Source: a virus (Duplodnaviria > Heunggongvirae > Uroviricota > Caudoviricetes). From it: 5,087 bases of DNA. Below, piece by piece: positions 1 through 1,943 of the stretch. Location: the IMG/VR virus record IMGVR_UViG_3300000357_000189. One strand, given 5' to 3'. The position numbers and the translations under genes were made by a program. Every line of letters starts with the position of its first letter. The first letter of the stretch is position 1. A model generated the notes under the pieces. That model had not been told where the DNA came from. It did no database searches and worked only from the letters and a program-made list of their open reading frames with translations.

Positions 1-350
1 TGGTGGAGCAGAACAGGCACACGGGCTTATTGCTGGGGGAAGTGAAACAGGAGGCCAGCGTATCGCAGTATGGAAGATTAGCGCACTGGAGGCTTAATCA
101 CCCTCACTGGTCACTGCATGACATCCGGCGCACCTTTACAACCATGCTGAACGATTTAGGCGTTGATCCGCATGTCGTGGAGCAGCTTACAGGCCACCAG
201 ATGCCAGGAATGCAGCGAGTTTATAATCATTCCCGTTATCTGGATGCGAAACGCAATGCGCTGGATATGTGGACNNNNNNNNNNNNNNNNNNNNNNNNNN
301 NNNNNNNNNNNNNNNNNNNNNNNNNNNNNNNNNNNNNNNNNNNNNNNNNN
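1..350 (+). CDS. int: Tyrosine recombinase (integrase), C-terminal fragment; 5' end lies upstream of the window and the stop codon is hidden in N-run 275-406, so the end coordinate is approximate
   Basis: Frame-3 translation of 3-274 reads ...HDIRRTFTTMLNDLGVDPHVVEQLTGHQMPGMQRVYNHSRYLDAKRNALDMW. HDIRR (His-x-x-Arg), LTGH and the Tyr in RVYNHSRY match the box II catalytic motifs of tyrosine recombinases. The post-gap continuation in the ORF track (TRSQKKIIFF...) looks non-coding. Confidence 0.85.
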
Positions 351-446
351 NNNNNNNNNNNNNNNNNNNNNNNNNNNNNNNNNNNNNNNNNNNNNNNNNN
401 NNNNNNTACCCGTAGCCAGAAGAAAATAATTTTTTTCGTGTTTTTT

Positions 447-462
447 CAGTATGCGCATACTG
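447..462. promoter_or_regulatory. Perfect 16-bp palindrome CAGTATGCGCATACTG in the int-alpA intergenic region; candidate protein-binding site
   Basis: The sequence equals its own reverse complement and follows two T6 runs (431-436, 441-446). It has no loop, so it fits a dimeric DNA-binding site better than an RNA hairpin. Confidence 0.3.
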
Positions 463-484
463 GATATGCGAACAGATACAACGT

Positions 485-522
485 GCAACAATGAGCAACA
501 ATGTGGAACAACTACGAACAAG
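485..522 (+). repeat. Four direct repeats with an AACAA core at exact 10-bp phasing
   Basis: AACAA occurs at 487-491, 497-501, 507-511 and 517-521 within gcAACAAtg / agcAACAAtg / tggAACAAct / acgAACAAga. Helical-turn spacing is typical of arm-type or iteron-like recombinase/regulator binding sites. Confidence 0.35.
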
Positions 523-794
523 AGGCGAAAAAGCGTACGGATTTATAAGTAGCTGATTTTTAATGTGTTACTGGTTTTTTGTACACTAGCGAATCACTCT
601 TTAAAGAGCGAGAAAAAAGGCATGGAACAATATTTTATGCCTTTGTATTAACGTGAATTTAAAAGATTTTATTCTTACTGTTTCATTTTCTGTAAATCAT
701 ACATCCTCAGTATTTGCCATTCATCACTCTAGCGGGAACAATACGACACAATAAGACACCTGATGACTCTTTAAGAAACGAAAGGGGGGCAATA

Positions 795-983
795 GTGTTA
801 AGCACTGATCGGTTTATACGTGAAAAAGAATGCGAAAAACTAACCGGCCTTAGCCGTACGTGTCGCTACCGCCTGGAAAAGGCCGGACAATTCCCATCAC
901 GTCGTAAACTTGGCGGTCGTTCCGTTGGCTGGTCTTTATCCGAGGTTCTGGCCTGGAAGGATAGCTGCAAGGCAGTTCATTAA
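795..983 (+). CDS. alpA: AlpA-family (Vis/excisionase-like) small DNA-binding transcriptional regulator, 62 aa
   Basis: GTG start at 795 follows the Shine-Dalgarno AGGGGGG (784-789). Translation VLSTDRFIREKECEKLTGLSRTCRYRLEKAGQFPSRRKLGGRSVGWSLSEVLAWKDSCKAVH matches the AlpA pattern (HTH ...TGLSR.T.Y.L...FP...LG.RSVGW...E...W). The ORF-track start at ATG 714 has no RBS and would give an atypically long N-terminus. Position directly downstream of int is as in CP4-57/P4-like elements. Confidence 0.8.
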   Translation: MLSTDRFIREKECEKLTGLSRTCRYRLEKAGQFPSRRKLGGRSVGWSLSEVLAWKDSCKAVH

Positions 984-1773: not shown

Positions 1774-1847
1774 AGTATGCAGGAAAAAAAATAAGTGTTC
1801 AACACTTGACGTGTTTAACACCTGGGTTTAAATTGGTGTTCAACACC
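1774..1847. promoter_or_regulatory. Divergent promoter/operator region with three GTGTT-N-AACAC palindromes overlapping sigma70-like promoter elements
   Basis: Palindromes at 1795-1805 (aaGTGTTcAACACtt), 1811-1821 (GTGTTtAACAC) and 1836-1846 (gGTGTTcAACACc). Rightward promoter: -35 TTGACG 1806-1811, 17-bp spacer, -10 TAAATT 1829-1834. Leftward promoter on the minus strand: -35 TTGAAC (complement of 1797-1802), 17-bp spacer, -10 CATACT (complement of 1774-1779). Operators overlap both -35 elements and the rightward +1 region. Confidence 0.55.
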
Positions 1848-1943
1848 TTGTTGGCGCAAGGTGCAGAAACGACGAAACCCGGCAGTGCGCTAACACTAAC
1901 CGGGCTTCTAACCACCAACGATAGCGAAAGTATCGAGGTAGCT

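What the first reader, a model, noticed from the sequence alone, without database searches (positions are those of the whole stretch)
485..522. Four AACAA-core direct repeats at exact 10-bp (helical) phasing
AACAA starts at 487, 497, 507 and 517. Same-face phased repeats are the usual signature of arm-type integrase sites, excisionase (Vis/AlpA-type) sites or iterons. If they are recombination arm sites, the att core may be closer to this side of int than a CP4-57-like layout predicts.
Basis: partly seen in the sequence, partly recalled or inferred. Interest (0 to 1): 0.45.

Follow-up and report, generated by a model that had tools for sequence, protein, structure and literature searches.

The report
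Phased AlpA-type boxes downstream of integrase
The four evenly spaced AACAA repeats are real and conserved, and they are a third copy of a box array found beside the integrase sites at both ends of this E. coli phage satellite, so they are most likely docking sites for its small excisionase/activator AlpA rather than arm sites of a nearby att core or replication iterons.

Summary
AACAA starts at 487, 497, 507 and 517, and a fifth box (ACAAC, 478) lies in the same register. The array is five 10-bp units, GnAACAAnnn, at 475-524.

The window is the left part of an 11.4-kb EcCICFT073-family phage-inducible chromosomal island inserted in E. coli tqsA. The array lies 46 bp after the int stop and 271 bp before alpA.

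A matrix trained only on this array, in five lineages, picks out both att arms of the element in reverse orientation (29-32 bits; background at most 4.8). There the boxes abut a doubled 12-bp motif, GGTGTAGTCAC x2, which co-varies with the integrase N-terminal domain and is the likely true arm-type site.

Across nine lineages the ACAA cores are nearly invariant while the spacers drift. The box number (5-6) changes only in whole 10-bp steps.

The att core is the 9-bp ATAACAGCA, 175 bp upstream of int and 1,450 bp from the array. The origin iterons (AGGTAGAYA) lie after the primase gene.

Best reading (0.58): this is an operator array for the 62-aa winged-helix AlpA, which acts as excision factor at the att arms and as autoactivator here. 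Binding is inferred, not shown. This is a new member of a known kind.

The parts
475..524 (+). Distal box array: five head-to-tail 10-bp units GnAACAAnnn (475-484, 485-494, 495-504, 505-514, 515-524). This is the finding, extended by one unit to the left.
   Evidence: Searches show the sequence, the phasing and 0/200 shuffles. Searches show invariant cores and variable spacers in nine lineages. One search shows it is the top phased-triple score (33.6 bits) in the 28.6-kb locus.
1..429 (+). 3' part of the tyrosine integrase gene (P4-type, with an Arm-DNA-bind_3 N-terminal domain in the full protein). The stop codon TAA is at 427-429 and 275-406 is masked with N.
   Evidence: RefSeq annotation of the identical locus L001 12794-14023. 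Pfam PF13356 plus PF00589.
447..462 (.). Perfect 16-bp palindrome CAGTATGCGCATACTG between the int stop and the array. It is present only in the lineages with five boxes. EcCICFT073-type relatives have two further boxes at this position.
   Evidence: (I9).
616..644 (.). Conserved hairpin (AAAGGCAT...ATGCCTTT, up to 12 bp) with an invariant A-run before it and a T-rich stretch after it. It is probably a bidirectional terminator that separates int from alpA.
   Evidence: Fold z = -3.7 (+ strand) and -2.5 (- strand). The stem is kept through a two-sided change in L009. The simple terminator scan does not call it.
714..742 (+). Candidate alpA promoter TTGCCA-17 nt-AACAAT. Other lineages have CACAAT with an upstream TG.
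   Evidence: It is the only sigma-70-like site found at the equivalent place in four lineages. This is a consensus match only and no transcript start has been mapped.
735..764 (+). Proximal, weaker phased boxes (GGAACAATAC, GACACAATAA, GACACCTGAT). They overlap the candidate -10 and the start of the leader. Relatives carry 3, 4 or 5 copies.
   Evidence: Phased-triple score of 13.7 bits, fourth in the locus. TRF reports period 10 at 738-759. Indels come in 10-bp steps, and L010 has +10 bp.
795..983 (+). alpA: a 62-aa winged-helix protein of the Phage_AlpA family, the proposed binder of the boxes.
   Evidence: Pfam PF05930, E = 5e-17. 45% identity to P4 Vis. AlphaFold model with pLDDT 86; the best PDB matches are excisionases (8c3t TM 0.83, RdfS, Pukovnik Xis, TorI).

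Best explanation
The array is a cis-acting operator made of five (six in EcCICFT073-type relatives) head-to-tail boxes, one per helical turn. It is bound cooperatively by the island's own 62-aa winged-helix protein AlpA.

AlpA has two roles. At the two att arms, four-box arrays of the same sequence lie directly beside the doubled integrase arm-type sites; there AlpA would act as the recombination directionality factor that lets Int excise the island. At this third array, between int and alpA and in inverted orientation, an AlpA filament would bend the DNA and raise transcription of alpA and the downstream early operon (positive autoregulation). Excision and island gene expression would then switch on together once a helper phage has triggered the first AlpA.

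Shown here:
- the array, its phasing and its selective conservation;
- its identity with the att-arm boxes;
- the position of the att core, the arm-type motif and the origin;
- the fold and family of AlpA.

Taken from published work on the same island family:
- AlpA is needed for induction;
- AlpA with Int is sufficient for excision;
- AlpA activates a reporter fragment that contains the array.

Inferred:
- AlpA is the protein that binds the boxes;
- the distal array, rather than the weaker proximal boxes, mediates the autoactivation.
For: 1. The boxes form a direct-repeat array at an exact 10-bp period, and only the cores are conserved. This is the binding mode described for excisionase-type factors: lambda Xis, Gifsy-1 and Pukovnik Xis, Apl and Cox (PMC7498355). 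TorI sites I3-I5 in KplE1 attL read GTTCGtcatgGTTCGcttcaGATCG, also at exactly 10 bp (PMC2951348).

2. A matrix trained only on distal arrays ranks the P' arm (31.6 bits) and the P arm (29.1 bits) directly after the array itself (33.6 bits) in 28.6 kb on both strands. The next unrelated site scores 4.8.

3. The only 8-mers shared by both arms and the intergenic region are box words, apart from one isolated TGTTTCAT that lies outside any array.

4. In both arms the boxes abut the doubled motif that co-varies with the Int N-terminal domain, whereas the boxes themselves do not change. L001 and L003 have identical AlpA but different Int and a different doubled motif. The layout matches Xis sites next to Int arm sites.

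5. AlpA is a Vis/Xis-type winged helix. No other excisionase-like gene is annotated in the island.

6. EcCICFT073 primers map perfectly onto relatives L006 and L007. The published PalpA-lacZ fragment runs from 33 bp before the int stop to alpA codon 19, so it contains the whole array. It is activated by AlpA supplied in trans. The longer pJP1290 fragment, which starts at the same primer, responds to helper phages. AlpA plus Int causes excision (PMC6092414).

7. Similar GAACAA-type boxes lie next to doubled arm motifs upstream of int in AlpA-bearing islands of Kosakonia, Phytobacter, Buttiauxella, Erwinia, Hafnia and a deltaproteobacterial MAG.

8. An AlpA-family factor of the ROD21 island binds both att regions in several complexes (PMC8844411).
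Against: - No binding data exist. AlpA is nearly invariant among all relatives that carry the array, so co-variation between protein and box could not be tested.
- The array is centred about 250 bp upstream of the start expected from the only conserved promoter-like site, with a terminator-like hairpin in between. That is an unusual distance for a simple activator site.
- The weaker proximal boxes at 735-764 could be the real autoregulatory site.
- In EcCICFT073, AlpA did not change expression of a Pint fusion that contains the P' arm boxes (PMC6092414). Binding there, if it occurs, has no transcriptional effect.
- P4, whose Vis is 45% identical, and CP4-57 show no comparable arrays with this matrix.
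Confidence: 0.58

Rival explanations
1. The boxes are the landing site of a helper-phage protein, the still unidentified inducer (for example a phage excisionase-like or other small DNA-binding protein). This protein would switch on alpA, as P2 Cox does by binding 10-bp phased boxes upstream of vis at the P4 PLL promoter. AlpA might share the site or might not bind it.
For: Reporter pJP1290, whose fragment contains the whole array, is induced by lambda and phi80 independently of SOS, and the inducer is unknown (PMC6092414). In P4, three 10-bp repeats CCACTTAAAG/TCATTTAAAG/CCACTTAAAG lie 146-175 bp upstream of vis. From my own knowledge they match the Cox box TTAAAGNCA (Saha et al. 1989, not readable here). 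Excisionase cross-talk between a PICI and its helper has been reported (PMC11773190).
Against: The same boxes flank the Int arm sites in both att arms, which points to the island's own excision factor. AlpA alone, without a phage, activates the fragment and drives excision (PMC6092414). Helpers as different as lambda, phi80 and the CFT073 prophages would all have to encode a protein with this specificity.
Confidence: 0.12
2. The boxes are additional integrase-binding sites (arm-type or accessory). They would be used for intasome architecture or for Int autoregulation from the 3' side of its gene.
For: The same boxes occur in both arms within 90-150 bp of the core. P4 has an arm-type repeat annotated inside its int gene, away from the arms.
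Against: The motif that changes together with the Int N-terminal arm-binding domain and with the integration site is the doubled GGTGTAGT(CAC/TAA), not the boxes. That doubled motif is absent from the intergenic region. It has the 12-bp tandem-pair layout of the P4 arm repeats and of the HE-PICI motif (PMC10111431). The array is 1,450 bp from the core on the far side of int.
Confidence: 0.07
3. The array has no dedicated binder. It would be a relic of a duplicated att arm, a patch of intrinsically bent DNA, or a target of a host nucleoid or response-regulator protein that likes phased TGTT-type repeats.
For: The spacers also resemble those of the arms: GATACAACGTGAAACAA in L005 against GCTACAACGTGAAACAA in the P' arm. 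This is compatible with common descent by duplication. Many winged-helix response regulators bind 10-11 bp direct repeats (own knowledge).
Against: The cores are kept and the spacers drift across lineages that are only 67-80% identical. The array gains or loses whole units while keeping its phase and its distance to the downstream block. That pattern indicates ongoing selection on the boxes. There is no significant RNA structure either.
Confidence: 0.1
4. The repeats are iterons of a replication origin bound by the island's primase/helicase.
For: Only the form: short direct repeats at helical phasing. The reverse complement TGTTCCAC loosely resembles the P4 type 1 iteron TGTTCACC.
Against: Multiple AGGTAGAYA iterons in both orientations lie directly after the primase gene. 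That is where the origin of EcCICFT073 was mapped functionally (PMC6092414). The array is the same in relatives with a primase (L001, L004, L006) and with a RepA-type helicase (L003, L005).
Confidence: 0.02

Closest known systems
Operator arrays of dual-purpose recombination directionality factors: phage 186 Apl, P2 Cox, P4 Vis
   Same: A small excisionase-type protein binds head-to-tail to direct repeats one helical turn apart. One array lies at att and another, of similar sequence and arrangement, lies in a regulatory region of the same element (PMC7498355). Vis is 45% identical to this AlpA.
   Different: In those phages the regulatory array lies between or over the regulated promoters and mostly represses. 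Here it lies about 250 bp upstream of the only recognisable alpA promoter, is inverted relative to the att arrays, and the published effect of AlpA is activation. Both att arms carry boxes, whereas most such factors have sites in one arm only. Binding is untested.
TorI sites in KplE1 (CPS-53) attL
   Same: Sites I3-I5 are pentamer cores (GTTCG/GATCG) at an exact 10-bp period. They sit next to integrase arm-type sites upstream of the integrase gene (PMC2951348). The core resembles GTTCC/GTTCG within the boxes found here. TorI is among the structural matches of the AlpA model.
   Different: TorI is only weakly related in sequence (29% over 42 residues). Its gene is at the other end of the prophage. 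No third array near torI is described. TorI represses PintS, whereas AlpA had no effect on Pint in EcCICFT073.
Lambda Xis X1-X1.5-X2 micro-filament beside arm site P2
   Same: Three phased winged-helix binding sites lie directly beside an Int arm-type site, and they bend the DNA for the excisive intasome (PMC7498355). The doubled motif here (TAGTCACTGG) resembles the lambda arm-type consensus CAGTCACTAT as I recall it.
   Different: Lambda has Xis sites in one arm only and none outside att. Lambda Xis is not a transcriptional activator of its own gene.
P2 Cox boxes upstream of the P4 PLL promoter and vis
   Same: An array of 10-bp direct repeats lies upstream of the alpA homologue of a satellite (P4 9176-9205). 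It is used to switch the satellite on.
   Different: The binder there is the helper's protein, not the satellite's own. The box sequence is unrelated (TTAAAGNCA, from my own knowledge). Those boxes are not found in the P4 att arms.
Doubled attP motif of helper-embedded PICIs (tgTGTATTGCa x2 at -81 and +132)
   Same: The doubled motif found here has the same 12-bp tandem-pair design, co-oriented on both sides of the core at similar distances (about -88 and +143) (PMC10111431).
   Different: That motif corresponds to the neighbouring doubled motif, not to the finding's boxes. The phased boxes beside it and the third array were not described in that paper.

Membership tests
Binding-site arrays of excisionase-type (winged-helix) recombination directionality factors | Three or more direct, head-to-tail repeats spaced one DNA helical turn (10-11 bp) apart | tested here: met
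   Five boxes at exactly 10 bp, and six in EcCICFT073-type relatives.
Binding-site arrays of excisionase-type (winged-helix) recombination directionality factors | The same boxes are present in the att arm(s), next to integrase arm-type sites | tested here: met
   Phased-triple scores are 31.6 bits (P' arm) and 29.1 bits (P arm) against a background of at most 4.8. In both arms the boxes end 4 bp before the doubled motif.
Binding-site arrays of excisionase-type (winged-helix) recombination directionality factors | The element encodes a cognate small basic winged-helix protein that is required for excision | tested here: met
   PF05930. The fold matches excisionases 8c3t, 8dgl, 4j2n and 1z4h. 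The requirement for excision is taken from PMC6092414 for the same island family (primer mapping).
Binding-site arrays of excisionase-type (winged-helix) recombination directionality factors | Physical, cooperative binding of the factor to the boxes, with DNA bending | not testable with these tools
   This needs EMSA or footprinting with purified AlpA.
Binding-site arrays of excisionase-type (winged-helix) recombination directionality factors | For dual-purpose factors: the non-att array controls a promoter | tested here: inconclusive
   The array lies inside the published AlpA-responsive fragment. It is about 250 bp upstream of the start expected from the only conserved promoter-like site, beyond a hairpin.
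Integrase arm-type sites | Located in the P or P' arm, within roughly 200 bp of the crossover core | tested here: not met
   The core ATAACAGCA is at L001 12611-12619 and the array at L001 14069-14118. They are 1,450 bp apart with int in between.
Integrase arm-type sites | The sequence co-varies with the integrase N-terminal arm-binding domain | tested here: not met
   The boxes are unchanged between integrase types. The doubled GGTGTAGT(CAC/TAA) motif is the one that changes with the N-terminal domain.
Replication-origin iterons | Clustered at the origin next to the initiator gene, flanking an AT-rich stretch | tested here: not met
   AGGTAGAYA iterons lie after the primase gene at L001 18969-19206. 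The origin of EcCICFT073 was mapped there (PMC6092414).
Replication-origin iterons | The sequence changes with the initiator protein | tested here: not met
   The same boxes occur with a primase-type and with a RepA-helicase-type replication module.
AlpA binding element of the Pseudomonas aeruginosa antiterminator AlpA | A single 6-bp element (GGGACG) between -35 and -10, read by a Q-like protein of more than 140 residues that loads onto RNA polymerase | tested here: not met
   The protein here has 62 residues and is a bare winged helix. The site here is a five-box array far from any -35/-10 pair. Description from PMC9371919.

The most novel reading that the evidence does not exclude
The distal array is the point where the island senses its helper. 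A phage-encoded excisionase-like or other small DNA-binding protein made early in the helper's lytic cycle would occupy the AlpA boxes and fire alpA. EcCICFT073-type islands would then eavesdrop on helper recombination or early functions, as P4 does with P2 Cox. AlpA would take over the same boxes for positive feedback and for excision.
Probability: 0.1. Interest if true: 0.8.

Novelty: new member of a known kind. Interest (0 to 1): 0.42.

Why it matters
AlpA is the master switch of Gram-negative phage-inducible chromosomal islands. In the papers I could search and read, however, its DNA target is not described, and it is unclear how one 62-residue protein both excises the island and turns on its genes. 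This analysis proposes a concrete box, GnAACAAnnn at a 10-bp period. It also proposes three arrays: both att arms and the int-alpA spacer. These can be tested directly with the existing EcCICFT073 reporters. It separates the probable integrase arm sites (the doubled GGTGTAGTCAC) from the probable AlpA sites. It also defines the DNA in which the unknown helper-phage induction signal must act. The principle is familiar from P2/186/P4 and KplE1, so this is a useful map rather than a surprise.

Tried and rejected
- Origin iterons. The initial lead was that the reverse complement TGTTCCAC resembles the P4 type 1 iteron TGTTCACC. It was rejected because the real iterons lie after the primase gene and the array is independent of the replication module.\n- Antitermination by AlpA, as in P. 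aeruginosa. Rejected because that AlpA is a different, larger Q-like protein with a single ABE.\n- RNA-level function. The array region folds no better than shuffles on either strand (z = -0.45 and +0.34). Rfam gives nothing there.\n- Co-variation of box sequence with AlpA sequence. This was not possible. All relatives that carry the array have nearly the same AlpA. More distant AlpA loci from other genera have another gene between int and alpA and no distal array.\n- Scan of viral contigs for the four-box pattern. It returned 120 or more unrelated low-complexity hits, mostly giant-virus contigs, and was not informative.\n- P4 and CP4-57. Neither shows arrays that match this matrix, so the well-studied Vis and AlpA prototypes give no direct support.\n- A second promoter just after the array. 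TATAAG at 544-549 keeps a fixed distance from the last box, but the hexamer is poorly conserved (TGTAAG, TAATAA and CTAAAA in relatives). It was left as a possibility.\n- Literature. The Vis binding-site papers (Cali 2004, Saha 1989) are not held. No held paper was found that describes AlpA footprints.

Full report
**1. The observation**

The + strand reads GATACAACGT GCAACAATGA GCAACAATGT GGAACAACTA CGAACAAGAG from 475 to 524. AACAA starts at 487, 497, 507 and 517, as reported. A fifth unit with ACAAC at 478 lies in the same register.

The four-box pattern is absent from 200 dinucleotide-preserving shuffles. Tandem Repeats Finder calls a period-10 array. The finding is real and should be extended by one unit to the left.

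**2. What the window is**

The 654 bases around the finding match 877 of 5,426 complete E. coli genomes. The identical locus in strain EcPF5 (L001; window position = L001 position minus 13,594) shows the following gene order:
- integrase;
- the 365-bp spacer that holds the finding;
- a 62-aa helix-turn-helix gene;
- Icd-like and YlcI/YnfO-like genes;
- small ORFs;
- a D5-type primase;
- SSB;
- major capsid and head-decoration genes.

All of this lies between two halves of tqsA. The int stop is at window 429 and the alpA start (GTG) is at 795.

Primers published for EcCICFT073 map without mismatch on relatives L006 and L007. The element is therefore a member of the EcCICFT073 family of phage-inducible chromosomal islands (PMC6092414).

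**3. Where the att core is**

The two tqsA junctions share the 9-bp ATAACAGCA (L001 12611-12619 and 24022-24030). I joined the left flank, one copy of the core and the right flank. The result is a 240-bp sequence that matches intact tqsA at 100% in strains such as Nissle 1917. In all, 5,170 of 5,426 genomes carry the uninterrupted site.

The core is thus 175 bp upstream of the int start and 1,450 bp from the array. It is the ordinary P4/CP4-57 arrangement, and the repeats are not arm sites of a nearby core.

**4. Two kinds of repeat in the att arms**

Both arms contain a co-oriented module of about 64 bp. It consists of four 10-bp units with a TTGT core, then 4 bp, then GGTGTAGTCAC twice at a 12-bp period.
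- P' arm units: CTTGTTCCAG CTTGTTTCAC GTTGTAGCCC TTTGTGCAAC.
- P arm units: CTTGTGTCTA TTTGTTCCAC GTTGTTTCAT ACAGTGCACC.

The doubled motif is GTCAC in islands inserted in tqsA. It is GTTAA in islands inserted next to roxA or abgR, and it changes together with residues of the integrase N-terminal arm-binding domain. AlpA can be identical between the two types, as in L001 and L003.

Its design matches the 12-bp tandem arm repeats annotated in P4. It also matches the doubled motif reported at -81 and +132 in helper-embedded PICIs (PMC10111431). I therefore take the doubled motif to be the integrase arm-type site.

**5. The finding's boxes are the other repeat**

The TTGT units are the reverse complement of the finding's AACAA boxes. 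I trained a 10-column matrix only on distal arrays of five lineages and scanned the 28.6-kb locus on both strands for three boxes in 10-bp phase. The scores were:

| Site | Score (bits) |
|---|---|
| Distal array itself | 33.6 |
| P' arm | 31.6 |
| P arm | 29.1 |
| Weaker array just upstream of alpA (window 735-764) | 13.7 |
| Near-core array in the P' arm | 11.2 |
| Best unrelated site | 4.8 |

The only 8-mers shared by both arms and the spacer are box words, apart from one isolated TGTTTCAT. Single boxes occur at random about once per kilobase, so only the arrays stand out.

**6. Conservation**

Nine lineages from three integration sites were compared, at 67-100% identity in the spacer. All carry the array, with five or six boxes at exactly 10 bp.
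- The ACAA columns have a mean entropy of 0.06 bit and the spacers 0.70 bit (p = 1.3e-4).
- EcCICFT073-type relatives have two extra boxes on the left, where this window has the palindrome CAGTATGCGCATACTG. They lack one box on the right.
- The distance from the last box to the conserved downstream block is kept.
- The proximal boxes vary between 3, 4 and 5 copies in 10-bp steps.

This pattern points to selection on phased boxes, not to a decaying relic.

**7. What binds them**

The array is independent of the replication module (primase or RepA helicase) and of the packaging module. It travels with int and alpA.

The origin is elsewhere: AGGTAGAYA iterons in both orientations follow the primase gene, where the EcCICFT073 origin was mapped (PMC6092414).

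The boxes do not follow the integrase type.

AlpA is a PF05930 protein and is 45% identical to P4 Vis. Its model (pLDDT 86) matches solved excisionases best: GIsul2 Xis (TM 0.83), RdfS, Pukovnik Xis and TorI.

Factors of this kind bind head-to-tail to direct repeats one helical turn apart. Several of them (Apl, Cox, Vis, RdfS) have one array at att and another in a regulatory region (PMC7498355, PMC11963761). TorI sites I3-I5 are GTTCG-type cores at exactly 10 bp beside arm-type sites (PMC2951348).

In EcCICFT073, three published results bear on this (PMC6092414):
- alpA is essential for induction;
- AlpA with Int suffices for excision;
- AlpA activates a lacZ fusion whose insert runs from 33 bp before the int stop to alpA codon 19, which contains the entire array.

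The simplest reading is that the boxes are AlpA sites. This step is inferred.

**8. How the distal array may work**

The only promoter-like site conserved in four lineages is TTGCCA-17-(A/C)ACAAT at 714-742. The array is centred about 250 bp upstream of the start expected from this site.

A conserved hairpin at 616-644 lies between them. It is stable on both strands and is kept through a two-sided change. It looks like a bidirectional terminator.

Activation from the array would therefore need strong bending or looping to the proximal boxes. Alternatively, the proximal boxes may be the working site and the distal array may serve as a reservoir or threshold-setting site. I commit to autoregulatory operator as the most likely role, but this is the weakest link. 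AlpA had no effect on a Pint fusion containing the P' arm (PMC6092414). At att, therefore, the boxes would serve recombination rather than transcription.

**9. Rivals**

- A helper-phage protein as the binder is attractive by analogy with P2 Cox at P4 PLL. P4 has three 10-bp repeats 146-175 bp upstream of vis. That they are Cox boxes is my own knowledge. The att-arm location of the boxes and the phage-independent action of AlpA argue for the island's own protein.
- Integrase binding, a relic or host-factor site, and iterons are less likely, for the reasons given in sections 4 to 7.
- The P. aeruginosa AlpA antiterminator is an unrelated, larger protein with a single 6-bp site (PMC9371919). It does not apply here.

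**10. Verdict**

It is wrong about a nearby att core and about iterons.

The kind of element is well known from P2/186/P4 and KplE1. Three things appear to be new relative to the papers I could read:
- the concrete box;
- the three-array layout in a much-studied PICI family;
- the separation of the boxes from the arm-type motif.

Interest is moderate.

Noticed in passing
L001 12747-12770 and 23926-23949 (outside the window; window -847..-824 and 10332..10355): A doubled 12-bp motif, GGTGTAGTCAC x2, lies in both att arms in the same orientation, about -88 and +143 from the core. It reads GGTGTAGTTAA x2 in islands inserted at roxA or abgR and changes together with the integrase N-terminal domain, so it is probably the arm-type site.
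   Followed up: yes
L001 12630-12680 (outside the window, P' arm 15-65 bp from the core): A further run of about five 10-bp units with an nTGTTTCAnn core (GCTGTTTCATAATGTTTCAGGCTGTGCATTATGTTTTG) lies right next to the crossover core. Its phased-triple score is 11.2 bits.
   Followed up: partly
window 616-644: A conserved hairpin lies between int and alpA. The A-run before it is invariant, which gives a T-run on the minus strand. The stem is kept through a two-sided change in L009. It looks like a bidirectional terminator and would end any leftward transcript at about 610.
   Followed up: partly
window 666-697, minus strand: A possible leftward promoter faces away from the alpA promoter. TTTACA (697-692) and AATAAA (673-668) are both in invariant blocks, and the spacer between them is variable in sequence. 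Together with the hairpin this would give a transcript of about 50 nt. The match to consensus is weak and no data support it.
   Followed up: no
window 447-462: A perfect 16-bp palindrome, CAGTATGCGCATACTG, lies just after int. It is present in the five-box lineages and is replaced by two more boxes in EcCICFT073-type relatives. It may be a site for a dimeric regulator or a by-product of array turnover.
   Followed up: no
window 764-780 and 593-611: GACTCTTTAAGAAAC directly upstream of the alpA ribosome-binding site is nearly invariant in all nine lineages. A related ATCACTCTTTAAAGAGCGA lies 170 bp upstream.
   Followed up: no
window 1793-1849 (L001 15384-15456, minus strand): GTGTTCAACAC occurs twice (1795-1805 and 1836-1846) between the divergent YlcI/YnfO-like and Icd-like genes, which looks like a repressor operator pair. 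The same stretch gives a sub-threshold Rfam match to the SymR antitoxin RNA (33 bits, gathering score 61).
   Followed up: no
L001 18969-19206 (outside the window): A dense set of AGGTAGAYA iterons in both orientations lies directly after the primase gene. This is the expected island origin of replication.
   Followed up: partly
L012-L018, about 15-60 bp upstream of alpA: In AlpA-bearing islands of Kosakonia, Enterobacter, Phytobacter, Buttiauxella, Erwinia and Hafnia, a GC-rich hairpin sits immediately before the alpA start codon. Its stem shows compensatory changes (GCCCTCG/CGAGGGC versus GCTCTCG/CGAGAGC) and it is followed by a T-run. An extra ORF overlaps or follows int in these islands.
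   Followed up: no
window 275-406 and ten further runs: The window contains masked N runs. The first covers the integrase C-terminus. None touches the finding, and the unmasked sequence was read from the identical locus L001.
   Followed up: yes
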